IMG/VR virus record: IMGVR_UViG_3300045919_000302
Coordinates: 32,001-96,000 of that record
Source of the DNA: a virus
Length of the DNA: 64,000 nucleotides
Reading direction: 5' to 3' (one strand)
Under the pieces are notes generated by a model. It was not told the DNA's origin. It was given only the letters and a program-made list of their open reading frames with translations, and searched no databases. Made by a program: the position numbers and the translations under genes. This document shows, piece by piece, positions 1 to 63,578 of this stretch. The first letter of the stretch is position 1. Every line of letters begins with the position of its first letter.

Positions 1-172
1 CCTCTTCTCCATCGCCCAGCTCGAAGATGTACTCCTGCTCCTGCGTGATCGCGTGTAATTCGCGAATGATGGCAATCGTTCCATCGGGATTGCAGATCTG
101 GTCTCCCACCTTGAGATCGACGATCTGCCTGAAACCTGTTGGGGTCAGTACGTGGTCTTTGACGCGCTGCTT
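1..172 (-). mobile_element. Intein N-terminal splicing region within terminase (partial)
   Basis: KQRVKDHVLTPTGFRQIVDLKVGDQICNPDG directly after Walker A GK matches Hint blocks A/N2 (xQPLDAKVLTPTGW...DLKVGD). Confidence 0.75.
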
Positions 173-517
173 CTTGCCCCCGCCAAGTGAACCTCCCCAG
201 ATCGCGGTGTTGTACCCGCCCTCAAAGATCTCGATCAGGTCTTTCTTGATCTCCGGAAAGAGAGTCTTGGTGATCGATCCTAAATAGAAAGGGTTCTCCA
301 AGAACTCCTTCATCGATACCGGAGGAACCCGGTAGAGATCGCGCGAGGCGTACTCGATGATCGGGCTTGCCCCGTCACGCATGAAATCCTCCAGGACAGA
401 GAGCGCTGCTTCGCGCTCGGGTCCTGAAAGTCCTTCCATCTCTCGCTGAAAGATCTCAGCGTACTCGGCGTCAGTCCGAATGGACTGAAACCTTCCGCCT
501 TGATTTAGGATGCTCAC
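1..517 (-). CDS. terL: Terminase large subunit, N-terminal part (runs off the window), interrupted by an intein
   Basis: Manual translation from GTG at 517: MSILNQGG...PPVSMKEFLENPFYLG...TAIWGGSLGGGK (Walker A of large-phage terminases), followed by intein-like sequence. Confidence 0.75.
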   Translation of the reverse strand, partial: MSILNQGGRFQSIRTDAEYAEIFQREMEGLSGPEREAALSVLEDFMRDGASPIIEYASRDLYRVPPVSMKEFLENPFYLGSITKTLFPEIKKDLIEIFEGGYNTAIWGGSLGGGKKQRVKDHVLTPTGFRQIVDLKVGDQICNPDGTIAIIRELHAITQEQEYIFELGDGEE

Positions 518-538
518 AACAACATCAACGAGCGGGGA

Positions 539-838
539 TTAAACCTGATCCAGATCGCCGTTCATCTCAGCGCCCATTTCTGGCTCGGGAAGCTCTTCGG
601 CTTCCGCGCCTTCGTCGCCGTCCTTCTCTTCCGCTTCAGGGTTGAGAGCTTCCTTGACTTCGGCGAGTTTTGCGTCGAGAGCAGCTTCGCCCTCGCCTTC
701 TTCGCCTTCGTGCCGGCCTTCTACTGCCATGACGAGGTCACCGAGAAGCTTCTCGTGGTCGATCTTTTTCTTCTTCTTGCCTTCAGAAACTTCTTCCGGA
801 AGACCAAAACCATTCACCGATTCACTGATCTGTTTCAT
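539..838 (-). CDS. Acidic head-region protein with FGxP tag (scaffold/internal-protein-like)
   Basis: N-terminus MKQISESVNGFGLP; very Glu-rich; next to terminase. Confidence 0.55.
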   Translation of the reverse strand: MKQISESVNGFGLPEEVSEGKKKKKIDHEKLLGDLVMAVEGRHEGEEGEGEAALDAKLAEVKEALNPEAEEKDGDEGAEAEELPEPEMGAEMNGDLDQV

Positions 839-847
839 ACTGTCTCC

Positions 848-1957
848 TTACGTGGTTAACTCGGGCGCAACCTCTGCGACCATGTCACTTCCCAAGATCT
901 GAATAACCTTTTTTACGATCCCTTCATCATTGGTGTGCAGATTGACATGATCAGCTTCACCAGATGGTCCCACCTGGATAAACGCTTCCGGTTCAAGCTT
1001 TAAAACGGCGTCTCGCATCGCCTGCGTTATCTCACTATCTGGATTGAGGAAAATGGTATGCATCGGCTCGTCATCTACACGCTTCATCTTCAGTGCGTGG
1101 ATGTGCTCGGATGGGACGTCAGGAAGACTGAACGGGATGTCTCCAGTCTTTTTGTTCCCACGGCGGAAGCGATTCTCGTTCTCCCCATGTTCAGCATCGG
1201 TCGCGTCCCAGTAGGTGTAACTGTCGTCGTGACCATGTTGAAGCGCGATCTTGTAGAACGGGGAACTCGGCGAAAGACGCTTCGAAATGTAGAAGTAGAA
1301 GTCGTTGCTCTTCGAGTAATCCTCAAAGTAATCTTGCTCCGGCTCGGTGATGCACCACTTCGTCCCAGAGCCGTAGAGCATTGCGGCCTCTTTGGTAGTG
1401 ATGTGGTAAACCTTCCAGTACTTGTCCTCGGCGACGAGTTTGGCCCCCGATGCCTTCTTCTCTTTCTTCTCCTGGCTCTTCGACTTGCTGGCCTTCGTCT
1501 CATCGACGAAAGCCTTGAACTCGGCCCAGGTCTTCCACTTGTCGATGTCCTTCTTGGTGGCATCCTGGATCTTCGGCTTCAAAAGCTTGAAGTCGGTGAT
1601 GTAGTCGGTGATCTCGTCATCAGGAGCCCCTTGATCCTTGAAGCGCTTGATAGAGGTTTTGAAGTCCTCTTCGAGACTTTCATTCTTGGGCCATTGATGT
1701 GTTTTCTCGTATGCCCCAAAGATCGTGTTGCATCTGGTCTGAGCACGCTCTTCGGATTCAAGCGGGCCATCGCGATAAACCTGGCGCTCATCGTCGAATA
1801 TCTGGGCAATCCAGCCATTGGAATACAGACCGACCATGGCCGTGATGTAGTCCGTGAAATTCCGGTACGACCCACGGATGCACGAATCCCTCGCCTTCCA
1901 CCCATCGTCAGACTCGAATACCGGCAGGCCGAACCTATCTACGCCCTCGGTGAACAT
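848..1957 (-). CDS. FGxP-tagged putative internal head protein with PcfJ-like GTKWC domain
   Basis: N-terminus MFTEGVDRFGLPVFES; motif AAMLYGSGTKWCIT...FYFY. Confidence 0.6.
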   Translation of the reverse strand: MFTEGVDRFGLPVFESDDGWKARDSCIRGSYRNFTDYITAMVGLYSNGWIAQIFDDERQVYRDGPLESEERAQTRCNTIFGAYEKTHQWPKNESLEEDFKTSIKRFKDQGAPDDEITDYITDFKLLKPKIQDATKKDIDKWKTWAEFKAFVDETKASKSKSQEKKEKKASGAKLVAEDKYWKVYHITTKEAAMLYGSGTKWCITEPEQDYFEDYSKSNDFYFYISKRLSPSSPFYKIALQHGHDDSYTYWDATDAEHGENENRFRRGNKKTGDIPFSLPDVPSEHIHALKMKRVDDEPMHTIFLNPDSEITQAMRDAVLKLEPEAFIQVGPSGEADHVNLHTNDEGIVKKVIQILGSDMVAEVAPELTT

Positions 1958-2973
1958 TAGTCGCGGTCCCGATGGAGGCTGATCGAAGCGCCGCCCCAGC
2001 CGCCACTCACGCTGTAGTTGAAGTAATTCCCATCAGCCGCCTTCACGAGGTAGATCGGCGAGTAGATGTGGTGAGCCTTGTCTTCGTGGAAGCCGGCGAG
2101 CCTGAACTCTTTGAAGTTCTTGATCACCTCGGCGTCCTGCACGTTGAACTGGGCATCGCGGACCATGCCGGTGTCGCGCAGCTCGCCCTTCGCGTTGATG
2201 ACGTTCTTTTTGAGCCAGGCGATCCCTTGTTGGGATTGCTCGGGCGATATGTCGATGAGCTTGCCTTCTTCGAACATCGCGAGGATCTCGTGAAGGATGT
2301 ATTTCATCTCCTCGTCCATGTCCTGCTTCCAACCCCGGGCCAGATCCGACAGGCGGTGAGCGACCCCGAGGATCTCCTGCTTCGTCCACATCGGCTTGGT
2401 CTTCAGGGCCTCGTACTTCTTGAGCGTAGCGCGGGCGGTGCCTTCCTGGATCTGCACGGACTCGTCCACCTCCCCGACTTCGGCATCGTAATGATTCTGA
2501 GCAGACGTCAGGGCCTTTTCGAAGGTCACCTGAGGGTCCTTATCGCACCAATGCATAAGGTCCGCGAGAAGGTCCACTACGGCCTCTTCACCCTCGCTCC
2601 CTGTGTGCGCAGAGAATGCCTTGAGGGCGACATCAGCGGCGGCAACGCTGTCTTCCTTGGATTCGACCACCGACTCCACTGCCTTCTTCTGACCGGAATG
2701 AGGATCCTTCGGGTCGAGGTAGCGAGCGTCTCGCGAGCCCTTGTCCGGAATGATCTCGTATTCCTGACGATCATTCTCGTACTGGTCGCCGAGCTTCTCA
2801 GCGAGAAACGCCTCAGCATCTTCAGCTGAATCGAACTTCTGGCCATCAAACATGATCGTGTTGGTCCAGTCAACGATGTGCCACTTCTCCTTGGCTTCGA
2901 TCTGGGTGCTCTCTGTCAGCTCGCGCTCGATCGGGAACCCAAACTTGTCTTCGACCATCATCTTCTTCGCCAT
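1957..2973 (-). CDS. FGxP-tagged multidomain putative internal head protein
   Basis: MAKKMMVEDKFGFPIERELTES; internal VVES/VDES linkers; DLLADLMHWCD helical module. Confidence 0.6.
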   Translation of the reverse strand: MAKKMMVEDKFGFPIERELTESTQIEAKEKWHIVDWTNTIMFDGQKFDSAEDAEAFLAEKLGDQYENDRQEYEIIPDKGSRDARYLDPKDPHSGQKKAVESVVESKEDSVAAADVALKAFSAHTGSEGEEAVVDLLADLMHWCDKDPQVTFEKALTSAQNHYDAEVGEVDESVQIQEGTARATLKKYEALKTKPMWTKQEILGVAHRLSDLARGWKQDMDEEMKYILHEILAMFEEGKLIDISPEQSQQGIAWLKKNVINAKGELRDTGMVRDAQFNVQDAEVIKNFKEFRLAGFHEDKAHHIYSPIYLVKAADGNYFNYSVSGGWGGASISLHRDRD

Positions 2974-2983
2974 TTGATCTCCG

Positions 2984-4114
2984 TTATCCGATTGGGTACG
3001 CCGACCCTGATTTTGCTGCCATCTCTTGAAGCCGGGCCGTCGGTCGGCCCAGTCCGCTCAAGATCGTGAAGAGGTAGATTGTGCTTTGGGATCCAGCCTC
3101 ATAAACTCCGCGATGGAGCTTTGTCTCCGGGCCCTGGGCCATCAGTCGGTTAAGAGAGCCAAAAGCGCCCTCAAGAGCCTCCTGCGTAACCGAAGCAAGC
3201 CCCTCGCCGTTACTGACAAGAAGCCCTGCCCCCACTTTCGCTTTCGAGAGATCGAGTCCTTCAACGAGAAGCCCCTTCTTCACGTTCTCACGAACCGCGT
3301 CGGCGACATCCGTCGGCTTCTCGATTCGCTCAAGCTTTGTCCTTCCAAAGCTAAGAATGCCAGATTCGAGGACGGTCCGATAGTCTTTTGGATCGCAGAC
3401 CACGTGACACTCTTTGCTGTCGATCGCACACAATTCGTTGAAGCTGCTGAACAGGGCGGCGATGTTTTTATTTGCGGTCTTCCATACGTCCACCACGCTG
3501 GCGGTGCCGTAGAGCTGCATCACTCGGGCGTTGTCCACGATGACCAGGGGCGAGAGATGGCCCTTCTCGGCCATGCCCAGGAGGGGCAGAAGGGTCTCCA
3601 GGGCGTTCCGCTGCACAGCCGAGGATTCATCCTTGGTCGGGAGGGTGACGATCACGCCGACGCGCTTCTCGGGATTCTGGACGCCGATGGAAGCCATGTA
3701 CCCCTTGGCGATCTTCACGAGCGGAAGGGCCGCTCCGGATCCAGTGCCGCCGCCGGCACCGACACAGATCAAGATCTGCTCGACGTCTTTTTTGAAGGAG
3801 GACTGGATCAGACGATGAATCTCTTCGCTCTCGGCCTCGACCGCTGCACGGCCCACGGCCGGATCCTTGCCGGCCCCACCATCGCCCCTCAGGACATGAC
3901 GATTCGCCTCGGGTACGGAGAGCCGCTGCATGTCGCGGGTCGTGGTGTTCACGATGGCCACGCGCCGGTAGCCCAGACCGTAGAAGGTGTCCGCAAGATT
4001 ACCGCCGCCCTGGCCAGCGCCAAGGAAGGCCATCTTCACGGCAGTCTTCTTTTCTTCTGTGACGGATTCAACAGTGGCTAAAACTTCGTCATCAATCTGT
4101 GAAAGGTCAAGCAC
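2984..4114 (-). CDS. Tubulin/FtsZ-family GTPase (PhuZ/TubZ-like)
   Basis: GAGQGGGN, GAGKDP and GAGGGTGSG signature motifs; AAGGAG RBS before GTG at 4114. Confidence 0.9.
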   Translation of the reverse strand: MLDLSQIDDEVLATVESVTEEKKTAVKMAFLGAGQGGGNLADTFYGLGYRRVAIVNTTTRDMQRLSVPEANRHVLRGDGGAGKDPAVGRAAVEAESEEIHRLIQSSFKKDVEQILICVGAGGGTGSGAALPLVKIAKGYMASIGVQNPEKRVGVIVTLPTKDESSAVQRNALETLLPLLGMAEKGHLSPLVIVDNARVMQLYGTASVVDVWKTANKNIAALFSSFNELCAIDSKECHVVCDPKDYRTVLESGILSFGRTKLERIEKPTDVADAVRENVKKGLLVEGLDLSKAKVGAGLLVSNGEGLASVTQEALEGAFGSLNRLMAQGPETKLHRGVYEAGSQSTIYLFTILSGLGRPTARLQEMAAKSGSAYPIG

Positions 4115-4239
4115 AACGATCTCCTTTTTCCCTAACAAATTAAACTCATCTTCAGTCAGCAGAGTGTAAACCATAATTGCGGAAGCCACCATCCTGGCAT
4201 TCGCAAGCAACCCAAGCAACAACCCTTTGACTCTTTGTC

Positions 4240-5100
4240 ATGACAAAAGGTATAAGTCAGGCTATGCCAAAAGCATTGGATTTCACCGCAAAGCGATTCG
4301 GTCGCCTTACTGCCATACATTTCGTGGGCCGCAGTCCTTCTGGCCGAGTGTGGCTCCTCTTATGCGACTGCGGCGCAACGATAGAAAGGCCGGTATGGGC
4401 TTTCAAGAAACCAAGAGTCAAAAACGTTTCCTGTGGATGCAGGGGACTTCCATTCCCCACTAACGGTCAAAGATTTGGGAGGTTGATATCGACAGGCCCA
4501 GGATCGAATGGGAAATGGTCTTTTCGCTGCGATTGCGGAAAGGAAATCCAAAGGCCGCGCTATGCGGTTCAAAACGGCAAAACTAAAAGTTGCGGATGCT
4601 TGTGGACCGAGACAGCAAAGGAAAAACAAAAGAAATACTGCCATTCGCACGGCTACAGCAAGACCGCCATCTACAGCAGATGGAAAAACATGCTGTCCCG
4701 CTGTGAGGATCCAAACCACATCAATTTTAACGACTACGGCGGAAGAGGCATAAAAGTTTGCGAACGGTGGCATAACTTCGAGAATTTTCTGGCAGATATG
4801 GGAAACCCGTTCACCGACAACAAGAGTAAGGCTCTTCAAATCGATCGCATAAACAACAACGGAAACTACGAACCTGGAAATTGTCGATGGGTAACACCCA
4901 GAGAAAACTGCAACAATAGAAGAAACAACGTACTGATCACATGGAACAACAGAACCCTTACTCTTGTTCAGTGGTCCAGGGAGACCGGCATTCCCAGAGA
5001 CACACTAAGTCACAGAATAAAGAGCAGCCGTCTCAGCATCGAGGAGATTCTCACTGTTCCCGTAGGGGCGCACCCTTGGAGGAGGTCCCGTCACCCATAA
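4240..5100 (+). CDS. HNH homing endonuclease
   Basis: Repeated FGRL...CxCDCG...SCGC units; YGGRGIKVCERW...IDRINNNGNYEPGNCRW. Confidence 0.85.
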   Translation: MTKGISQAMPKALDFTAKRFGRLTAIHFVGRSPSGRVWLLLCDCGATIERPVWAFKKPRVKNVSCGCRGLPFPTNGQRFGRLISTGPGSNGKWSFRCDCGKEIQRPRYAVQNGKTKSCGCLWTETAKEKQKKYCHSHGYSKTAIYSRWKNMLSRCEDPNHINFNDYGGRGIKVCERWHNFENFLADMGNPFTDNKSKALQIDRINNNGNYEPGNCRWVTPRENCNNRRNNVLITWNNRTLTLVQWSRETGIPRDTLSHRIKSSRLSIEEILTVPVGAHPWRRSRHP

Positions 5101-5115
5101 CGTCCTGCTGTGCCC

Positions 5116-5149
5116 CTACGGGGGCCATAATCCTGGCGGGCGTAAGTTA
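5116..5149. repeat. Dispersed hairpin element, copy 1
   Basis: CTACGGGGGCCATAATCCTGGCGGGCGTAAGTTA; related to copies at 23836, 40870, 47584, 59853. Confidence 0.65.
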
Positions 5150-5156
5150 CGATAAC

Positions 5157-5196
5157 AAAAAAGCCCCACCCACCCGCTAAGGTGAGAGGGGCTTTT
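5157..5196. terminator. Bidirectional intrinsic terminator
   Basis: AAAAGCCCC...GGGGCTTTT inverted repeat between convergent genes. Confidence 0.7.
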
Positions 5197-5217
5197 ATAT
5201 CCTCCTGGCGGGGATCT

Positions 5218-5364
5218 TCACCAGAAAGAAGGTGGTGGATTGCTCGATTGAGGCACTGGATCCTCGTCAGCGCATGGCCGGCACGGGATTAGGTACAGGC
5301 CCGTTGAGTCGCGCTTCTTCTTTGTGCCATTGCAGTCAGGACATTTTTCATCATTATTTTCCAT
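5218..5364 (-). CDS. Small Zn-finger protein
   Basis: MENNDEKCPDC...CRPC; GAGGGG RBS upstream. Confidence 0.5.
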   Translation of the reverse strand: MENNDEKCPDCNGTKKKRDSTGLYLIPCRPCADEDPVPQSSNPPPSFW

Positions 5365-5549
5365 TTTATCCCCCTCGTATTTTTGAGATGGCCACCCAGT
5401 ACCACGGCATAACAAGTTGTCAAGCGACGCGGATGCGCCTCCGTTGCAGAGGAAAGATATGCGATTAATGGTGGGAAATTTGAGGCGGGAAGGCTGGCAG
5501 ATCTTCAGACTGGCACGACAAACGCGCACTTGCAAGTTATCATGACTCC

Positions 5550-6074
5550 ATGAAGCTCTCTGGATCTGTCGATTGCTTTGGACTCCCGGCTGTCGAGAAA
5601 GAGGCGCAGGAGATCTCCGAGGCTGAACTGAAGAAGGCCAACTGCCCCGAGTGTGGCCCTTCCTATTTCAAGAAGACATACGCCTTCGACCCAGATATGC
5701 GCCTCATCTGGCAATGCCAGAACTGCGGCCACCAGAAGGAAGTGGGGAAGCGGGCCCCTTCACCGAAGGCTCAGCAAGCCGCGCTCGACAAGATCCGGAA
5801 GGCCATCGAGACCTCCGGAACTCCTGACCATCCGACCCGGATCGTTGAGTGGACCGTCGAGAACGACGAAGGCGGATTCATCAACTTGAAAGTCTGGGCG
5901 ATGCAGGGCGAAGACAGCAACATGCTGGGCCTCGTGTCCAAGCGCCTGCTCGGGATCCGCATCAGCCCGGTCGGGGGCGTCACCGTCTATTCAGACTCAC
6001 AGGCAAAGACGAAGTCCCAGCTGAAGGATGTCGAGAGACGCCTTCGAGATGGAACCAGGACTCACTGGTGGTGA
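5550..6074 (+). CDS. FGxP-tagged Zn-ribbon protein
   Basis: MKLSGSVDCFGLPAVE; CPEC...CQNC. Confidence 0.65.
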   Translation: MKLSGSVDCFGLPAVEKEAQEISEAELKKANCPECGPSYFKKTYAFDPDMRLIWQCQNCGHQKEVGKRAPSPKAQQAALDKIRKAIETSGTPDHPTRIVEWTVENDEGGFINLKVWAMQGEDSNMLGLVSKRLLGIRISPVGGVTVYSDSQAKTKSQLKDVERRLRDGTRTHWW

Positions 6075-6458
6075 TCAGACCTTTTCGAGGGAAGTCTTCC
6101 AAGCGTCAGTCTCGTCTTGAAACCAAGTCCCGCCGTGATCCCAGAAATCCATCAAGCGAGCCTCGTTCTTGACGATCCACGATCTGATGTGAGCGAGATC
6201 TTTTGCGGATACCGACTTCGTGAATTGGCGATCCTTGTGGGCCTCCACGACCTCGGGACTCTTTGAGATCGTCATGGAGAAGAATTCACTCAACCCCGGG
6301 CGATCGGCGTAGACCTTGAGCGTGGGGATTTCTGAATGCGAAGTCCGGAGCGTCTCTTCCTTACTTCTGACGTGGAGCGAGTAGTGAAGGCCCGTTTCCT
6401 GACTGCGGAAATTAGCCATCTCAACAATCACTTCGGCGCTACGACTCAGATCGGTCAT
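6075..6458 (-). CDS. DUF4160-like protein (EMAN...TGL type)
   Basis: IVEMANFRSQETGL...H...LKV...WI pattern. Confidence 0.5.
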   Translation of the reverse strand: MTDLSRSAEVIVEMANFRSQETGLHYSLHVRSKEETLRTSHSEIPTLKVYADRPGLSEFFSMTISKSPEVVEAHKDRQFTKSVSAKDLAHIRSWIVKNEARLMDFWDHGGTWFQDETDAWKTSLEKV

Positions 6459-6493
6459 GACGTTACTCTACCTTAAATGACGCGAACTGTCAA
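6459..6493 (-). promoter_or_regulatory. Sigma70-type promoter, probably leaderless transcript
   Basis: TTGACA-17 nt-TAGAGT-6 nt-ATG; no SD. Confidence 0.65.
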
Positions 6494-6501
6494 ACCTGAA
6501 G

Positions 6502-9117
6502 TCAGGCTTCGTCGTCCAGGCTGCGCCACTTGACGCCCTCGGGATCCTTCTCAGACTTCACGATCTTCGCCCACTCAGGATTGCTTTCGACGTTCGACAG
6601 AATGGTATCGATGTCCGTCACCTGAGAAGGGAACCAATCCTTGTCCGTCTTGACGTAACTGATCGCGAGATCCGGGAAGCGCTCCAGCATGTCCTGGTAC
6701 ATTTCGGAGGCTGAGCTGCCTTCATAGAAGCCCTTTCTCGCCTTGGGTAGAACATCCCGCTCGAACATCTCCAGGGTCGGAGGGCAGACGATCCGCTGGA
6801 TGTTGCCGATCTTCTGGTTGCCACGGCCGTTCTTCTTCCAGGCGACGTAGATCTCGAAGCTCTTCTCTTTCTTTACCTCGGTGATCGGAGTTGCATAGCG
6901 CTCGCGAAGGACCGACTCGACCAAGCGACCACCCCTTGGGGCTGATTCAGCTTGGCGCTTGGGTGCGTACATGTCGAAGATCCGGACCCTGGTCGAATCA
7001 ATAGGACTACCTGGAGCGTTAACGAAGTCGAGGGCTTCATCATAAGTTGAAAAGGTCTTTGCGCGGTAGAGGTGCTCGCTCCAGCCGCTCTTCGTGTGCT
7101 CGGTGTAATACCTGGGCACCGCCCTGAATTTCGTCTTGATAGCCCAGCATTCCTTCGGGATCAAGGACTCGACCACTGCGTTTTCAAGCTTCTCCAGGAA
7201 GCGGTCCATGCCGTAGTGAAGCGGCGACGGGGCGTCGGAAAGTGTAGCCCAAGTGTAATCCTGGGTCTCGGAGTTCAACCTGGGCTTGAACTCATGATCC
7301 ACCGGAATCACGTAGAAGTGGAACTTGAATCCGCCCTCTTCGTACTCGTCCACGAGCCGTGGGTTCATGGGGCCTGTGTAGCCCGCCTCTTCCGCGACCT
7401 CGCGCTTCAGTGCTTCGAGCGGAGTCTCGCCTTCATCGATCTTTCCACCGAAGGTGCTCCAGGTATTCGGCTCCGGGCAGTCAGGCCCCCGGTGCGCAAA
7501 GAGATACCGACCGGTGTCCTTGGCGTAGAAGAGTCCGCCGGCCCCGGCGAGCCTCCAGGTGATTCCGTCCGGATCCGTGTAGGCGGCCTCCTTGAGGCCG
7601 ACCTTATTGAATTTGGAATCAAACTTCTCTTTTGAGATCCCGAACTCGCTGATCCAGTCCCCATCCACAAAGGCGCAGTCGGCGTTGACTCCGGATCGGA
7701 TCGCCCGGTTCAGGCGGTGCTGCCCATCCAGAACGTAGTTGGATCCGCCCACAACCAGAACGATGCTGGCCTCCAGATCTGCCTCAGGCTTGTCTTTGAG
7801 TTCCAGGCTCGACTCCTGCTGATGGATCTTTTGGAACGTCGCGGCCTCTTCGGGAGAGACCGACCGGAGCTTGGCATTCTTGACTGCGGCATCGAACTTT
7901 TTGGCAAAGTCTGGCCACTGATCGTCATCAATCATGGAGAAGAATTGGCCGATCGCTGACTCGTGGTCCTCGGGATGGATCTCAAGACGTTCGCCAAAGG
8001 GACGATTGGGTTGCGACCATAGGGCAGCTGCGTCGTCCGACTGTGCGTCACTTTTGCGGAGCTTCCTGTTCTTTAGTTTTTCCGCATATTGATACATCGC
8101 CGTAGCAAGACCTTTACGTCGATGTTCCGGATCCACAGAGATTCCCCTCGAATAGAATCCGTGGGCAGACTTTCTGTTTGCAATGTGGGCGTGGGCAACT
8201 TCTTCACCATCCTTGGTCACACTGATTCTCAGATCATCATCGCCAGTGTCGATAGCGCAATCCTTGCAACCAGCATCTGGCGCTTCCTGATGAGTTATCC
8301 TGTACCCTTTGTTTTCCAGATCCTCTAATCCCTCAGGGATCCACGCCTTCTGCTTCTTCAGCATGTCGAAAGCACCTTTTACACTGGTGTCGTATTTTTG
8401 ATCATCCGATTCGAAGAACTTACCCGCAGGGTAGCGTCCCGGCTTCTTGAAGACCTTGTCGATGATCTTCTTGAAGACCCCATTACATCGTCTGATGTCG
8501 AAGAGAAATTCTCCCTTTTCATCCCACACTCCGTACTTACCCCGAGCGGCGGTGATCGGAATCACTAAACTCACGTCATCAATATCAAATACGACCTGAT
8601 GTTTGTCACCATCGGAGATATGCTCAGCCTCTACAGCACGATCAACTTGGAGTAGGACGGCGTTTTTCCCGTAGTCGTCGTGCCCGCCAGGGCTGGCGTT
8701 ATCCAATGTAAAAGCGAACACCAGATTCCCTGGATTAGTTCGCTCATGAAACGTCAAACCAAGATTCTCTGGCGCTGCACCTTCAACGGTCCCACTCACA
8801 AACGCCTTTGCGAAAGCAATCGGATCCTTACTGGTATGACGAACAAGCCACGTGCCTCGCGGAAGCCATTTTGGCTTGCGAAAAAAAATAGTAGTGCTCG
8901 GCTCATTCCCTTCCGCTTCGCGGATAAAATCCGAAATCCAATCTTCGCGTTCATGTGGATCTCCGTCTTCAATCTCTTCAGGGACGGAGTCTTCGGCTTC
9001 TTTTCGGGTCTGCTCATACCACTGGTCATAAGATCCGGCCATGTCGTAGAACACATCCAGCTCATCCGACTCGACAAGTGGCATTCCAAAATGATCCAAG
9101 GACTCAGAGAGCATCAC
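6502..9117 (-). CDS. FGxP-tagged polyvalent protein with GNAT, ParB-like and NUDIX domains
   Basis: MMLSESLDHFGMPLVES; GNAT motif A VDPEHRRKGLATAMY; VLDGQHRL; NUDIX box GGKIDEGETPLEALKREVAEEAG. Confidence 0.85.
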   Translation of the reverse strand: MMLSESLDHFGMPLVESDELDVFYDMAGSYDQWYEQTRKEAEDSVPEEIEDGDPHEREDWISDFIREAEGNEPSTTIFFRKPKWLPRGTWLVRHTSKDPIAFAKAFVSGTVEGAAPENLGLTFHERTNPGNLVFAFTLDNASPGGHDDYGKNAVLLQVDRAVEAEHISDGDKHQVVFDIDDVSLVIPITAARGKYGVWDEKGEFLFDIRRCNGVFKKIIDKVFKKPGRYPAGKFFESDDQKYDTSVKGAFDMLKKQKAWIPEGLEDLENKGYRITHQEAPDAGCKDCAIDTGDDDLRISVTKDGEEVAHAHIANRKSAHGFYSRGISVDPEHRRKGLATAMYQYAEKLKNRKLRKSDAQSDDAAALWSQPNRPFGERLEIHPEDHESAIGQFFSMIDDDQWPDFAKKFDAAVKNAKLRSVSPEEAATFQKIHQQESSLELKDKPEADLEASIVLVVGGSNYVLDGQHRLNRAIRSGVNADCAFVDGDWISEFGISKEKFDSKFNKVGLKEAAYTDPDGITWRLAGAGGLFYAKDTGRYLFAHRGPDCPEPNTWSTFGGKIDEGETPLEALKREVAEEAGYTGPMNPRLVDEYEEGGFKFHFYVIPVDHEFKPRLNSETQDYTWATLSDAPSPLHYGMDRFLEKLENAVVESLIPKECWAIKTKFRAVPRYYTEHTKSGWSEHLYRAKTFSTYDEALDFVNAPGSPIDSTRVRIFDMYAPKRQAESAPRGGRLVESVLRERYATPITEVKKEKSFEIYVAWKKNGRGNQKIGNIQRIVCPPTLEMFERDVLPKARKGFYEGSSASEMYQDMLERFPDLAISYVKTDKDWFPSQVTDIDTILSNVESNPEWAKIVKSEKDPEGVKWRSLDDEA

Positions 9118-9668
9118 TGGGCCACTCCATCGACCGAAAATGCAGCGGGACTTCCTCCATGCTCCATGTGCTCGGCAAAGGCCATGACCATCTCGCCGTT
9201 CTCCTGGTGGAAGTTTCGGGCCTCCTGATCGGAATAGATCTCTTTCAGATGCGGGGTCGCATACTTCTTCCAGAGGGCCATCCGGTCGTCGAGATTTGAG
9301 AGCTGGGCATCGAGCTTCTCGTTACCAAGCTCGAACCAGAAGAGGCCCTTGTACTCGTGTTTCTTGATGTCCTTGTGGCCGACGATCTTTAGCTCGTGCT
9401 GCTTGAAGAGCATGTTGGAATGCTGGATGCGCTCGTACTCGTCGAAGTTTCCGTGCTCATCGCAACCGACGTAGTGGAACCCGCCGCCGTGGACGCCGGA
9501 ATCAGGGATGTAGAGAATGTGGCCCGAGGTCTTCCCGTCCGTCACGAGGAGGATGTCACCTGGCTTCCCGGTGGACTCGATTTCGTCCTTCCAGCTCCAG
9601 GAGGTCTTTCCGTCCTTCTTGGTTTCAGGGATGGGCATGCCAAAGCGGTCAAGGGATTCAGAAAGCAT
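9114..9668 (-). CDS. FGxP-tagged putative internal head protein
   Basis: MLSESLDRFGMPIPE, nearly identical to the leader of the adjacent 871-aa gene. Confidence 0.65.
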   Translation of the reverse strand: MLSESLDRFGMPIPETKKDGKTSWSWKDEIESTGKPGDILLVTDGKTSGHILYIPDSGVHGGGFHYVGCDEHGNFDEYERIQHSNMLFKQHELKIVGHKDIKKHEYKGLFWFELGNEKLDAQLSNLDDRMALWKKYATPHLKEIYSDQEARNFHQENGEMVMAFAEHMEHGGSPAAFSVDGVAQ

Positions 9669-9713
9669 AGGGCACATGATACCCCGAGATCCGTCCGACC
9701 TGAAGCTGTTTTG

Positions 9714-46204: not shown

Positions 46205-46603
46205 ATGAGGTGCTACTTTCGAGTCCTCTTTAGGCGTCAGGGGAATTATATCTATATTCTAGAACTCAAAGTATTCCCTCTGGTTTTCATCTGGACTGCG
46301 AATAAATTCCCGGAGGGGTGGGCCGAAGAGGAGATCCGCTGCTGGGACTGGGGTTCGGTCGAAGACCTACTCAAGGACGCCAAACCTGAAGACCCGAGTG
46401 ATGACGATCCGACTTACGAGATTTACGGACTCATGAAGCTAGAGTCCACCAAGTCATGGACCGACTGTGGTTATGAATACGACACCGAGTGCGATATCAT
46501 CGAGTCAGAAGCCCGTTGCCTATCTAAAGAAGACGTAGAGGCTTTCGACCCGCCGCCAGAAGACTTGGCTATCAACCCTGACCGGAGTAGTACTCCGTCT
46601 TGA
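46205..46603 (+). CDS. Hypothetical acidic protein
   Basis: ORF coupled to upstream plus-strand genes. Confidence 0.5.
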   Translation: MRCYFRVLFRRQGNYIYILELKVFPLVFIWTANKFPEGWAEEEIRCWDWGSVEDLLKDAKPEDPSDDDPTYEIYGLMKLESTKSWTDCGYEYDTECDIIESEARCLSKEDVEAFDPPPEDLAINPDRSSTPS

Positions 46604-46943
46604 CGCTCATGTCTTTCGTGTCGAGGAGAACCTCACCTGAGATTTCGGTGTCGTGGGTCTCCGGATCCATCGGCAGGAATTGAAGGCAAACCTTATCCCC
46701 TCGGTGGATCTGAGACCCCAGTCCGCCGTCGTCGAAGTCGGCGTAGTCTCCGCCCCAGGAGATCCCTCGGCCTTCGCTGGAGTCACCCAAGATATCTCTT
46801 TCTCGGGTGATATGGAACTCTGGCTTCTCGTAACCCTTCTTCACTGCGGCAGCGCAAGCCTTCTTGATGGCCTTTTGAATCTCTTTGGCTGGGACGATGT
46901 CCTCAGACTCGACCATGGGAATTCCGAACCGTGAAACTTTCAT
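46572..46943 (-). CDS. FGxP-tagged protein
   Basis: MKVSRFGIPMVES; ATGA overlap with 46940..47557. Confidence 0.6.
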   Translation of the reverse strand: MKVSRFGIPMVESEDIVPAKEIQKAIKKACAAAVKKGYEKPEFHITRERDILGDSSEGRGISWGGDYADFDDGGLGSQIHRGDKVCLQFLPMDPETHDTEISGEVLLDTKDMSVKTEYYSGQG

Positions 46944-47557
46944 TTGGGAACCCCCACCAGTATTTTGAGCATCTTCTCGCCGCCGATCTCGCGATAGTAC
47001 CATCCGTCGTACCCAGGGTACTTACCCTCGGGATGCGGGCCGACCCACTCGATCTGGCCCACCACGCGCTCGACGAACTCTTTCGCGTGAACGTAGGGCA
47101 CATGGTAGTGCGTGATCATGATGTGGGCCATGGCCTTTGAAACCTCGGCGTAGTGACCGATGGTCTTAAGCTGGGAGGCTCGGAACTTGAGGGCCGCCTC
47201 TTTGCCTTCAGGGCTTCCGTCAGTGCCCGTGGCCACGCCTTTGAGGCCATGGGGCTCCTCCTTGTTCACATTCACCGCGTTCACGTGGTCATCAGAGGCC
47301 GACAAATCCACCGCGAAGATTTCCAGATTTTTACCCAGGAGATCGTCGGGCGTCTTGATCTTGAGGTGGCCACCGATCTTGGCGTAGCTCTTTTGGATCA
47401 GGTCAAACAACTCCTGGCGAACCGCTGGATCGTTCTCGATGTCGGCTCGCTTGAGTTTTACCCACTGTCCGATCGGATAATGATCTGAGAACTTCTCCAC
47501 GAGCGGGAGTCCGAAGCCGTCTACGCAAACGTCAAAAGCATTTCCAGTGATGCCCAT
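46940..47557 (-). CDS. FGxP-tagged protein
   Basis: CVDGFGLPLVEK; FDLIQKSYAKIGG...YYREIGG domain (possibly GNAT-like). Confidence 0.65.
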   Translation of the reverse strand: MGITGNAFDVCVDGFGLPLVEKFSDHYPIGQWVKLKRADIENDPAVRQELFDLIQKSYAKIGGHLKIKTPDDLLGKNLEIFAVDLSASDDHVNAVNVNKEEPHGLKGVATGTDGSPEGKEAALKFRASQLKTIGHYAEVSKAMAHIMITHYHVPYVHAKEFVERVVGQIEWVGPHPEGKYPGYDGWYYREIGGEKMLKILVGVPK

Positions 47558-52643: not shown

Positions 52644-53186
52644 CTATGTGTGCAACGGAATGCCGAATCGGTCGAGAGATTCTTCGACGACACCGATAAT
52701 CATTTCGACAATCTTGTCGAGCGATCTCGTCTCAAGTTGAGCCAACTTCTCAAGCTGACTACGGATATCGCCGCCCAAATCCACGCTCATTTCGTCCGCG
52801 TCTTGAAGTGCAATCTCAGCCTTTGCAGACAATACGTGCAGAGCTGCTCTCACTTCACGAGCGACAGCGTCGAGAGAGGATCTCAATGCATCACGGACCT
52901 CGACTGGATTAGGAGCCCCTAGTTGGTCAAGCTTCTTGAGATACTCAGACCGCGACTGGGAGATGACCTCGTCGAAACCGGCGCATATCCCCCTGCACCG
53001 ACTCACTAATCGCCTCCCAGAGAGGGAGGCCGTGGCCTCCACGTGGACCTCGTCTACCTGGGCGAGGCGTTGCAATCCCTTCAGTAAAATCTTTGCGACC
53101 AAACTGAAGTCAATCTTTGCCGGCCTGCCGCCTTTGGCTCCGTTCGCTTTGCTCGTCTCTGACCGTTTGTCTTTTAGGTTTTTCAT
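52644..53186 (-). CDS. Putative DNA-binding protein with C-terminal FGxP tag
   Basis: SKANGAKGGRP at N-terminus; ends EESLDRFGIPLHT. Confidence 0.6.
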   Translation of the reverse strand: MKNLKDKRSETSKANGAKGGRPAKIDFSLVAKILLKGLQRLAQVDEVHVEATASLSGRRLVSRCRGICAGFDEVISQSRSEYLKKLDQLGAPNPVEVRDALRSSLDAVAREVRAALHVLSAKAEIALQDADEMSVDLGGDIRSQLEKLAQLETRSLDKIVEMIIGVVEESLDRFGIPLHT

Positions 53187-53221
53187 TTTTTTAATATATC
53201 CTAAAACAACTGTAAAGTCAA
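53187..53221 (-). promoter_or_regulatory. Sigma70-type promoter, probably leaderless transcript
   Basis: TTGACT-17-TATATT-6-ATG. Confidence 0.65.
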
Positions 53222-62799: not shown

Positions 62800-63468
62800 T
62801 CAAAAGGGGATGTCCGAGTCTTCTGTTTCGGTGGAAGCGCCGGCATCAGCCGGGGTCTTCGTCAGATCCGTCCGCTTCTGCGTATCCACCGGGGCTCCCG
62901 CGAAGCGCAGGCGGGCCTGAATTATCGAGGCCGGCTGAGGGGCTAGGATCTTCTCCCAGTCGAGCGGCTTGGCAATGTCTGCCGCAAGTTTGGTGAGATC
63001 CACCTTTTCCTTGAGAGTGATGTCGTTACCACAGCGAGGTGACTTCTCTCCGTCGCGGAAGACTTCAACCTTCCATCCGGTGAGATCGCCACCCTTCTCG
63101 GCGCGGCGGCGAGCAAGGAGATCGATCGAGTTGCCGGTGGCAACGAAGCCTTTCTTACTGTACTTGTATTCTTTTCCGTCGCTCCCCTTGTAGGGGGTGA
63201 GATCGAGGAAGCTGCTCCAGATCGTGTCCGTGCCGCGAACACCAGTTCCGCAGCCGAAGCAGTTTTCGTCCTTCGAGCAAATGAAGGTGAGCCACTTACT
63301 CCCCATGGGGACGGTGTGCTCGGTGACTTGGATCTGTTCATCCGCGAGAAAGACGCCAATGCGCTTCTCCCCGTCTTTCAAGCCGAACTTATACATCCAC
63401 AGCTCACGGCCCCCAGTGCTCTGGGCTACTCCGTGGTTCGCGTCTCCGGGCTTCTTGTACCAAGACAT
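62800..63468 (-). CDS. Single-stranded DNA-binding protein
   Basis: Acidic C-terminal tail EDSDIPF; His/Cys Zn motif; next to helicase; AAGGAG RBS. Confidence 0.7.
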   Translation of the reverse strand: MSWYKKPGDANHGVAQSTGGRELWMYKFGLKDGEKRIGVFLADEQIQVTEHTVPMGSKWLTFICSKDENCFGCGTGVRGTDTIWSSFLDLTPYKGSDGKEYKYSKKGFVATGNSIDLLARRRAEKGGDLTGWKVEVFRDGEKSPRCGNDITLKEKVDLTKLAADIAKPLDWEKILAPQPASIIQARLRFAGAPVDTQKRTDLTKTPADAGASTETEDSDIPF

Positions 63469-63578
63469 GGATTGCTCCTTGTGGTCACGTTTGTGACTAT
63501 TTTTGGTCATCTTCGATGACACTGTTTTTCGTATGAGCCATCGTAATCACGACTCAGTACGAATTGTAAATCGATATT

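What the first reader, a model, noticed from the sequence alone, without database searches (positions are those of the whole stretch)
539..9677. Shared D-x-F-G-[LMFI]-P leader on unrelated proteins: candidate capsid-targeting/ejection tag
Seen at N-termini: ISESVNGFGLPEEVSE (838), FTEGVDRFGLPVFES (1957), MVEDKFGFPIERELTES (2973), LSGSVDCFGLPAVE (5550), LSESLDHFGMPLVES (9117), LSESLDRFGMPIPE (9668), and far away VSRFGIPMVES (46943) and CVDGFGLPLVE (47557). The bodies of these proteins are unrelated. The tag is usually followed by hydrophobic-x-E. Established: T4 internal proteins use a short N-terminal capsid-targeting sequence removed by a prohead protease that cuts after (L/I)-x-E. Inference: a modular address label that loads diverse effectors into the head for injection with the DNA, and potentially an engineerable protein-delivery tag.
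Basis: partly seen in the sequence, partly recalled or inferred. Interest (0 to 1): 0.85.

Follow-up and report, generated by a model that had tools for sequence, protein, structure and literature searches.

The report
Shared head-loading tag on phage proteins
An uncultured 149-kb phage with a T4-type head puts the same 14-residue peptide on about a dozen unrelated proteins, most likely to load them into the capsid and clip them free there as phage T4 does, but with a new tag sequence and no experimental proof.

Summary
All eight listed N-termini carry the motif. I found three more copies in the same genome: one C-terminal, one internal and one N-terminal W-G-S-P variant. The full motif is phi-x-E-[SD]-[VL]-D-x-[FW]-G-[ILM]-P-phi-x-E. 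A strict pattern hits 9 times against 0.06 expected. Codons differ between copies and the protein bodies are unrelated.

The tag recurs in five or six related uncultured phages. There it also sits at module junctions inside multi-enzyme proteins.

The phage has a T4-type head: a gp20-like portal, a gp23-family capsid protein, and a gp21-family (S77) protease fused to its scaffold. That protease family cuts after L/I-x-E in T4, and such sites flank the tag. Eight of the 11 tagged genes lie in or next to the head gene block. One tagged gene's module is embedded in the giant post-portal protein of two relatives.

Best reading (about 0.6): a lineage-specific equivalent of the T4 capsid-targeting sequence, loading enzymes (GNAT, NUDIX, DEDDh exonuclease) for injection. 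No receptor was identified and no virion data exist. A docking role for another partner, such as the conserved phage tubulin, is not excluded.

This scan has already reported comparable leader arrays in several other T4-like phages, so this is a new variant of a known kind.

The parts
782..829 (-). Tag on T1, a 99-aa acidic protein (ORF 539-838) immediately upstream of the large terminase gene
   Evidence: 21.0 bits. Homologues with the tag in contig 3300015360_000055 and fused to another module in 3300032285_004742.
1913..1954 (-). Tag on T2, 369 aa (ORF 848-1957), weak PcfJ-like match
   Evidence: 22.9 bits. The orthologue in L013 keeps the tag but lacks the first ~90-aa module.
2911..2961 (-). 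Degenerate tag (D-K-F-G-F-P) on T3, 338 aa (ORF 1957-2973)
   Evidence: 8.4 bits. Its residues 29-96 recur inside the giant post-portal protein of two relatives.
2984..4177 (-). Tubulin/FtsZ-family gene lying among the tagged genes; context, and a possible rival receptor
   Evidence: Pfam PF00091 at 4.5e-12. Conserved next to TerL in G001, G006 and the L012 contig.
5556..5597 (+). Tag on T4, a 174-aa zinc-ribbon protein (ORF 5550-6074)
   Evidence: 23.0 bits
9070..9111 (-). Tag on T5, an 871-aa multi-enzyme protein (ORF 6502-9117) with GNAT and NUDIX domains
   Evidence: 24.2 bits. Relatives P0012, P0006 and P0009 carry further tags at module junctions.
9624..9665 (-). Tag on T6, 187 aa (ORF 9114-9677), no family match
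   Evidence: 25.6 bits
46908..46940 (-). Short tag on T7, 123 aa (ORF 46572-46943), start overlapping the T8 stop
   Evidence: 18.9 bits
47492..47536 (-). Tag on T8, 205 aa (ORF 46940-47557)
   Evidence: 21.2 bits
52647..52691 (-). C-terminal tag on T9 (ORF 52644-53189), preceded by V-V-E
   Evidence: 17.9 bits. C-terminal tags also occur in G004, G006 and P0009.
2..517 (-). N-terminal part of the large terminase gene, which continues beyond the window start; first gene of the head block that follows the tagged genes on the same strand

Best explanation
The 14-residue peptide phi-x-E-[SD]-[VL]-D-x-[FW]-G-[ILM]-P-phi-x-E is a lineage-specific counterpart of the phage T4 capsid-targeting sequence. 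It binds an unidentified component of the assembling prohead core, which here is built around a protease-scaffold fusion protein, so tagged proteins are enclosed when the gp23-type shell forms. The gp21-family (S77) head protease then cuts at the phi-x-E sites on either side of the core. This removes the tag from N-terminal, internal or C-terminal positions and splits multi-module proteins into separate enzymes. The freed cargo stays in the head and enters the host with the DNA. That cargo includes GNAT and NUDIX domains, a DEDDh exonuclease in a relative, zinc-ribbon and unknown proteins, and a small acidic protein. Shown here: the motif, its enrichment and conservation, the T4-type head genes, the gene clustering and the module exchange. 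Inferred: binding, cleavage, packaging and ejection.
For: (1) The motif is real, protein-level and about 150-fold over chance.

(2) It recurs in relatives. MCP is 66-81% identical (G001, G005, L012 contig) and portal 49-62% identical (G001, G006, L012 and L013 contigs). The tag sits on both homologous and non-homologous proteins there. It stays terminal even when the modules behind it are swapped, added or lost.

(3) Head machinery: Peptidase_S77 at 8.9e-15, Gp23 at 2.3e-66 and portal phrog_213 at 6e-62. T4 gp21 cuts after L/I-x-E (PMC9026906). Glu is present at -5 in 29 of 36 tags and at +6 in 24 of 36, each preceded two residues earlier by a mostly hydrophobic residue. The aligned MCP has a conserved L/M-G-E near the position of the T4 gp23 cut.

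(4) Eight of 11 tagged genes lie in one co-directional, tightly packed array: T6-T5 ... tubulin-T3-T2-T1-TerL-portal-giant proteins-protease/scaffold-MCP ... T10-T11-sheath. G001 and G005 show the same neighbourhood.

(5) The T3 module is embedded in the giant protein encoded between portal and protease in two relatives, bounded by x-x-E in all three settings. A P0006 module maps between the giant protein and the protease in G001.

(6) In library proteins P0003, P0006, P0009 and P0012 the tag stands at the N-terminus and again at module junctions.

(7) All four C-terminal tags have an x-x-E upstream, directly before the core in three of them, that could detach them. T4 Alt is likewise trimmed at both ends (PMC5694885).

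(8) Precedent: T-even internal proteins are diverse defence proteins sharing only a CTS (PMC3012670).
Against: There is no virion proteome, no cultured relative (best MCP match to a cultured phage is 35%) and no identified receptor.

Three tagged genes (T7, T8, T9) lie 37-44 kb from the nearest tagged head-adjacent gene.

One targeting signal per protein should suffice, so repeated internal tags fit a processing role better than a targeting role.

The tag has no sequence similarity to the T4 CTS.

Glu after the Pro could be a binding determinant rather than a cut site.

The phage tubulin gene is conserved beside the tagged genes and is confined to the same subclade as the tag in the material examined.
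Confidence: 0.6

Rival explanations
1. The motif is a docking peptide for some other shared partner unrelated to the capsid. Candidates are the phage tubulin encoded among the tagged genes, a modifying enzyme that recognises the tag, or a host hub protein.
For: The tag works at N-terminal, internal and C-terminal positions, like a short linear docking motif. The tubulin gene is conserved next to the tagged genes in G000, G001, G006 and the L012 contig. More distant portal relatives (44-49% identity) showed neither tags nor a tubulin in the flanks examined. An earlier scan case (e1-127136) showed that a shared leader in a T4-like phage can belong to a modifying enzyme rather than to capsid sorting.
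Against: The tubulin co-occurrence is a single clade-level event, so it is not independent evidence. No conserved candidate enzyme flanks the tagged genes; the ATP-grasp-like gene in L013 has no homologue in G000. This reading does not explain the flanking phi-x-E sites, the junction position in multi-module proteins, or the exchange of a module with the post-portal giant protein. The motif does not fit the bacterial clamp-binding consensus, and the phage encodes no clamp.
Confidence: 0.2
2. The motif is only an extended recognition and cleavage signal that marks where a protease separates modules, with no role in targeting. N-terminal and C-terminal copies are leftovers of gene fission at junctions.
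For: Multiple tags sit at module junctions in P0003, P0006 and P0012. The T9-type C-terminal tag and the G003 protein, in which a tag joins a T9-like N-terminal part to a homologue of window ORF 6075-6458, look like two sides of a fission or fusion event. Phi-x-E lies on both sides of the core.
Against: Standalone genes keep the tag within 2-5 residues of the start codon across divergent relatives, and it is preserved when the module behind it changes. Removing a dozen residues from an N-terminus has no obvious purpose unless the peptide acts before removal. Purifying selection on the F-G-x-P core goes well beyond what the minimal gp21 site needs.
Confidence: 0.12
3. Chance, or a nucleotide-level element (a recombination or translation signal) that happens to be translated.
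For: None beyond the shortness of the motif.
Against: Nine observed hits against 0.06 expected. There are no matches on control reversed patterns. Codons at conserved residues are synonymously diverse. The motif occurs in a single frame, at ORF termini only.
Confidence: 0.01

Closest known systems
Phage T4 capsid-targeting sequence (CTS) of internal proteins IPI-III and Alt, removed by prohead protease gp21 (Mullaney and Black 1996, as reviewed in PMC9026906, PMC3012670, PMC5694885)
   Same: The head gene set is the same type (gp20-, gp21- and gp23-type). A short shared terminal peptide sits on otherwise unrelated, fast-changing proteins. The peptide ends in hydrophobic-x-Glu. The cargo looks like host-takeover or anti-defence proteins. 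Processing at both protein ends is known for Alt.
   Different: The sequence is unrelated and longer (14 against 10 residues), with an invariant [FW]-G-x-P core and a second phi-x-E upstream. It also occurs internally at module junctions and at C-termini. The cargo includes large multi-enzyme proteins. The protease is fused to the scaffold. Nothing has been shown experimentally.
Polyvalent proteins of phages and conjugative elements (Iyer et al. 2017, PMC5512222)
   Same: Both involve multi-domain effector proteins encoded among late or structural genes and predicted to be packaged and delivered with the DNA. Domain types overlap (ArdA-like in the giant protein; GNAT/NUDIX associations).
   Different: That work proposes processing by an embedded zincin-like metallopeptidase. 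Pfam and PHROGs scans of T5 listed only GNAT and NUDIX families, no peptidase family, and the junctions carry a conserved tag flanked by head-protease-type sites.
Phage P1 DarB N-terminal capsid-targeting signal (PMC9024508)
   Same: An N-terminal signal of fewer than 30 residues directs a large anti-restriction enzyme, or a reporter, into the capsid.
   Different: P1 Dar proteins share no consensus leader, and the head type is different.
CTS-like leader arrays already reported by this scan in other uncultured T4-like phages (e1-3862018, e1-1066390, e1-5826867, e1-5778770, e1-5961333, e1-5376900, e1-5651009)
   Same: The layout and the inference are the same. Two of those reports also describe the leader motif joining modules of giant proteins.
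   Different: The tag sequences and phage lineages are different. Those are unchecked AI notes, not evidence.

Membership tests
T4-type CTS / gp21-processed head cargo system | Head built with gp20-type portal, gp21-family (S77) protease and gp23-family capsid protein | tested here: met
   phrog_213 at 6.3e-62; PF03420 at 8.9e-15 and PF07068 at 2.3e-66, both above the curated cut-offs
T4-type CTS / gp21-processed head cargo system | One short shared leader on otherwise unrelated proteins | tested here: met
   11 tagged proteins in G000 with no body similarity; 36 instances aligned
T4-type CTS / gp21-processed head cargo system | Leader bounded by the protease motif (L/I-x-E in T4) | tested here: inconclusive
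   Glu at +6 in 24/36 and at -5 in 29/36, with a mostly hydrophobic residue two positions before each. The specificity of this clade's protease is unknown and no cleavage was observed.
T4-type CTS / gp21-processed head cargo system | Sequence similarity to the T4 CTS (MKTYQEFIAE) | tested here: not met
   The consensus shares only the general phi-x-E ... aromatic ... phi-x-E layout. It is an analogue, not a sequence homologue.
T4-type CTS / gp21-processed head cargo system | Leader sufficient for encapsidation; cargo present in virions and ejected | not testable with these tools
   The clade is uncultured. The complex prediction gave no answer.
Polyvalent proteins (PMC5512222) | Several unrelated effector domains in one polypeptide, in late or structural gene context | tested here: met
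   T5 has GNAT plus NUDIX. The G001 462-aa protein has a GNAT domain. The giant protein has an ArdA-like module. Context.
Polyvalent proteins (PMC5512222) | Embedded zincin-like metallopeptidase for self-processing | tested here: not met
   No peptidase family among the Pfam or PHROGs hits of T5 or the other tagged proteins. This is limited to those libraries.
Bacterial sliding-clamp-binding motif (Q-L-[SD]-L-F type; consensus from my own knowledge) | Consensus residues, and a clamp to bind | tested here: not met
   The tag has a variable polar residue where the motif needs Leu, and lacks the Gln. No beta-clamp domain, family A polymerase or family B polymerase was found in the phage. The host clamp could not be tested.

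The most novel reading that the evidence does not exclude
The tag is a position-independent pseudo-substrate docking peptide for the S77 protease-scaffold fusion, related to or mimicking the N-terminus of the protease itself. Seven diverse Straboviridae gp21 proteins all begin with L-L-I-E-x-W-G-[QLV]-[PAS]. That matches the tag core [VLI]-[DE]-x-[FW]-G-x-P, and the proposed gp21 autocleavage Glu falls where the tag has Asp. Asp at that position blocked cleavage but not targeting in the T4 CTS (PMC9026906). If true, cargo and protease would enter the prohead core through one ancient docking site. The tag would then be a portable handle usable at either end of a protein, or between modules, for loading proteins into T4-type heads.
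Probability: 0.1. Interest if true: 0.7.

Novelty: new variant of a known kind. Interest (0 to 1): 0.45.

Why it matters
If correct, it defines an unusually explicit 14-residue loading-and-release signal for a T4-type capsid. It is carried by real enzymes and used at N-termini, C-termini and module junctions. That would give a clean sequence rule for predicting the injected protein arsenal of an uncultured phage clade. It would show how standalone cargo genes and giant polyproteins interconvert by fusion and fission at the tag. It would also offer a candidate handle for protein packaging experiments. The concept is already established for T4, and similar arrays have been seen repeatedly in this scan. 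The value therefore lies in the detail (motif anatomy, junction use, protease-scaffold fusion), not in a new principle.

Tried and rejected
- **Complex prediction.** Tag (first 35 residues of T5, 15-row alignment) with the 543-aa protease-scaffold fusion gave no answer, score 0.00. This counts neither for nor against binding.
- **The look-up of encoding contigs.** A viral-contig scan with P0003 found no relative.
- **Near-identical DNA in cultured phages.** None. The best cultured MCP match is 35%.
- **T4 late promoter TATAAATA.** One match in the window, not near tagged genes and not above chance. Expression timing stays unknown.
- **Tag profile against gp21 N-termini.** Scores of -0.7 to -4.1 bits, so the resemblance exists only at pattern level.
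- **The clade's own protease N-termini.** They keep only phi-phi-[IV]-D-x-x-G, so 'the tag copies this phage's protease N-terminus' is not supported.
- **The D-G-Q-H-R stretch of T5.** It looked ParB/Srx-like by eye, but Pfam gave no match even at E<=1.
- **Clamp-binding idea.** Dropped.
- **Library hits P0002, P0004, P0005, P0014, P0015.** These are unrelated repeat proteins scoring through repetition.
- **G002.** It has no related MCP, so its single N-terminal match may be chance.

Full report
**What is there.** The window is bases 32001-96000 of a 149,291-bp IMG/VR virus record with direct terminal repeats.

A six-frame scan of the whole genome adds three copies:
- a C-terminal one, 7 residues before the stop of window ORF 52644-53189(-);
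- an internal one in a 763-aa Lys/Glu-rich protein (genome 11278-13569, minus strand; T10);
- an N-terminal W-G-S-P variant on the gene after next downstream (genome 10151-10747; T11).

I aligned these with copies from relatives and from a protein library, 36 instances in all. The consensus is phi-x-E-[SD]-[VL]-D-x-[FW]-G-[ILM]-P-phi-x-E. Gly and Pro are invariant. Asp is present in 33 of 36, Phe/Trp in 35 of 36, the upstream Glu in 29 of 36 and the downstream Glu in 24 of 36.

**Is it more than chance?** Yes.
- A strict pattern gives 9 hits (8 terminal). The mean over 1000 residue shuffles of the proteome was 0.057 (0.016 terminal), with a maximum of 2.
- A profile of the tag cleanly separates 15 hits (8.4-25.6 bits) in two complete genomes from noise at 5.3 bits or less.
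- DNA patterns hit only the coding strand, with zero hits for reversed controls.
- Codons for the conserved Phe, Gly and Pro vary freely, so selection acts on the peptide and not on the DNA.
- Without the tags, the 11 proteins of this genome share no BLASTP similarity.

**What kind of phage is this?**
- The portal matches phrog_213. The capsid protein is Pfam Gp23 (2.3e-66).
- The head protease is Pfam Peptidase_S77, the T4 gp21 family (8.9e-15). It forms the N-terminal ~170 residues of a 543-aa protein whose remainder is a scaffold-like region.
- The sheath is also recognisable.
- Replication is not T4-like. There is a DnaB-type helicase, a primase, an initiator and an SSB, but no family A or B polymerase and no clamp.
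- No cultured phage is close.

**Where do the tagged genes lie?** Eight of the 11 lie in one tightly packed minus-strand array. In order it reads T6-T5, then (on the plus strand) T4, then tubulin-T3-T2-T1-TerL-portal-two giant proteins-protease/scaffold-MCP ... T10 ... T11 ... sheath. Stop and start codons overlap or nearly abut at T6/T5, T3/T2, T2/T1 and T1/TerL. T7/T8 and T9 lie 37-44 kb away.

**Relatives.** Portal- and pattern-based scans recovered a clade: G001 (160 kb, complete; MCP 66%), G006 (135 kb; portal 51%), and the fragments G003, G004, G005 and contig 3300015360_000055.
- G001 has three tandem N-terminal tags just upstream of its tubulin-TerL-portal block. They sit on a GNAT protein, a small protein and a DEDDh exonuclease. 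Its T10 orthologue carries an internal tag.
- G005 has four N-terminal tags upstream of TerL.
- G006 has two N-terminal tags and one C-terminal tag.
- Four more distant portal relatives (44-49% identity) have none.

The tag stays terminal while the modules behind it are shuffled:
- The T2 orthologue in G005 has lost the first ~90 residues of body but kept the tag.
- The T1 acidic module and the T3 C-terminal module are fused behind one tag in G005.

**Links to the head polyproteins.** Residues 29-96 of T3 recur at 54-58% identity inside the giant protein encoded between portal and protease in two relatives. In all three settings the module is bounded by x-x-E.

A profile search of 1.84 billion representative proteins found four further true members:
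- P0003: 1216 aa with four tags, one at the N-terminus and three before later modules.
- P0006: 644 aa with three tags, one directly before its NUDIX module.
- P0012: one N-terminal tag and one after its GNAT module.
- P0009: a single GNAT module with a tag at each end.

One P0006 module maps between the giant protein and the protease in G001. G001's giant protein also holds a near-tag with Asn in place of Gly. So the tag also marks module junctions.

**Interpretation.** In T4, internal proteins reach the prohead core through a 10-residue capsid-targeting sequence. Protease gp21 then removes it by cutting after L/I-x-E. T-even internal proteins are described as a diverse set of defence proteins sharing only that sequence. 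Alt is trimmed at both ends (PMC9026906, PMC3012670, PMC5694885).

The present phage has the same protease family and head type. Its tag is flanked on both sides by matching sites. Its tagged genes sit with the head genes. Its cargo is interchangeable with post-portal polyprotein modules. The cargo domain types fit the 'polyvalent protein' theme of packaged effectors (PMC5512222). I therefore read the tag as a lineage-specific capsid-targeting and release signal (confidence about 0.6).

Internal tags would let the head protease cut multi-enzyme proteins into units. The upstream phi-x-E would let C-terminal tags be removed too. Binding, cleavage, packaging and ejection are all inferred.

**Rivals.**
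- *A docking motif for another partner (0.2).* The tubulin gene is conserved among the tagged genes and, in the material examined, is confined to the same subclade. That is one shared-ancestry event, and it does not explain the flanking Glu sites or the junction use.
- *A pure processing signal without targeting (0.12).* This fits the junction copies, but not the strict preservation of the tag at the very start of standalone genes.
- *Chance or a DNA-level element.* Excluded.

**A lead, not a result.** The N-termini of gp21 proteases from seven diverse Straboviridae all carry L-L-I-E-x-W-G-[QLV]-[PAS]. This resembles the tag core. The proposed gp21 autocleavage Glu falls where the tag has Asp.

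However, the tag profile does not score these sequences. The clade's own protease N-termini retain only part of the pattern.

**What failed.** No late-promoter signal was found.

**Verdict.** This is a new variant of a known kind. This scan has already reported comparable leader arrays in several other uncultured T4-like phages.

Noticed in passing
window 2984-4177 (-): A tubulin/FtsZ-family gene sits inside the head-gene neighbourhood, directly upstream of TerL or of the last tagged genes. It is conserved there in G001 (54%), G006 (58%) and contig 3300015360_000055 (74%). A tubulin beside packaging genes in a T4-type-head phage is unusual and unexplained.
   Followed up: partly
genome 19653-21284 (-) = L179:2154-3785: The prohead protease (S77) and a scaffold-like region form one 543-aa ORF, also in three relatives. 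The G005 copy is 870 aa, with a ~300-residue insert in the scaffold part.
   Followed up: partly
L160:3449 and L261-L266 (gp21 of T4 and six other Straboviridae): A conserved N-terminal L-L-I-E-x-W-G-[QLV]-[PAS] motif in gp21 proteases resembles the tag core at pattern level, but is not detected by the tag profile.
   Followed up: partly
window 2-517 (-) continuing to genome ~29398; L013:6826-9993 and L013:10001-12226: TerL is about 1040-1055 aa in G000 and G005 against about 700 aa in contig 3300015360_000055, apparently because of an intein. The G005 portal also carries an insert that looks like an intein.
   Followed up: no
genome 24317-27544 (-), first ~90 residues; L010:9510: The giant post-portal protein starts with a conserved S-I-L-N-L-L-x-E-x-W segment followed by an extremely Arg/Lys-rich stretch. 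This may be a different head-incorporation or DNA-binding signal. In the relative, a degenerate tag-like segment (A-D-R-F-G-N-L-M-E) follows it.
   Followed up: no
window 6075-6458 (-) and L156:245: This 127-aa protein is untagged in G000. Its homologue in G003 is preceded by a tag that joins it to a T9-like N-terminal part, which suggests gene fission or fusion at tags.
   Followed up: partly
whole genome G000: No family A or B DNA polymerase and no beta-clamp domain were found, although a DnaB-like helicase, a primase, an initiator, SNF2 helicases and an SSB with a D-S-D-I-P-F tail (window 62800-63522) are present.
   Followed up: partly
genome 18111-19610 and 5276-7141: The capsid protein and the tail sheath share a ~120-residue segment (36% identity, E 1e-12), probably a common inserted surface domain. 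The same holds in G001.
   Followed up: no
genome 13559-15145 (-): The long ORF upstream of T10 is homologous to the second module of the four-tag library protein P0003. Its true start in G000 is unclear, because it overlaps the preceding gene.
   Followed up: no
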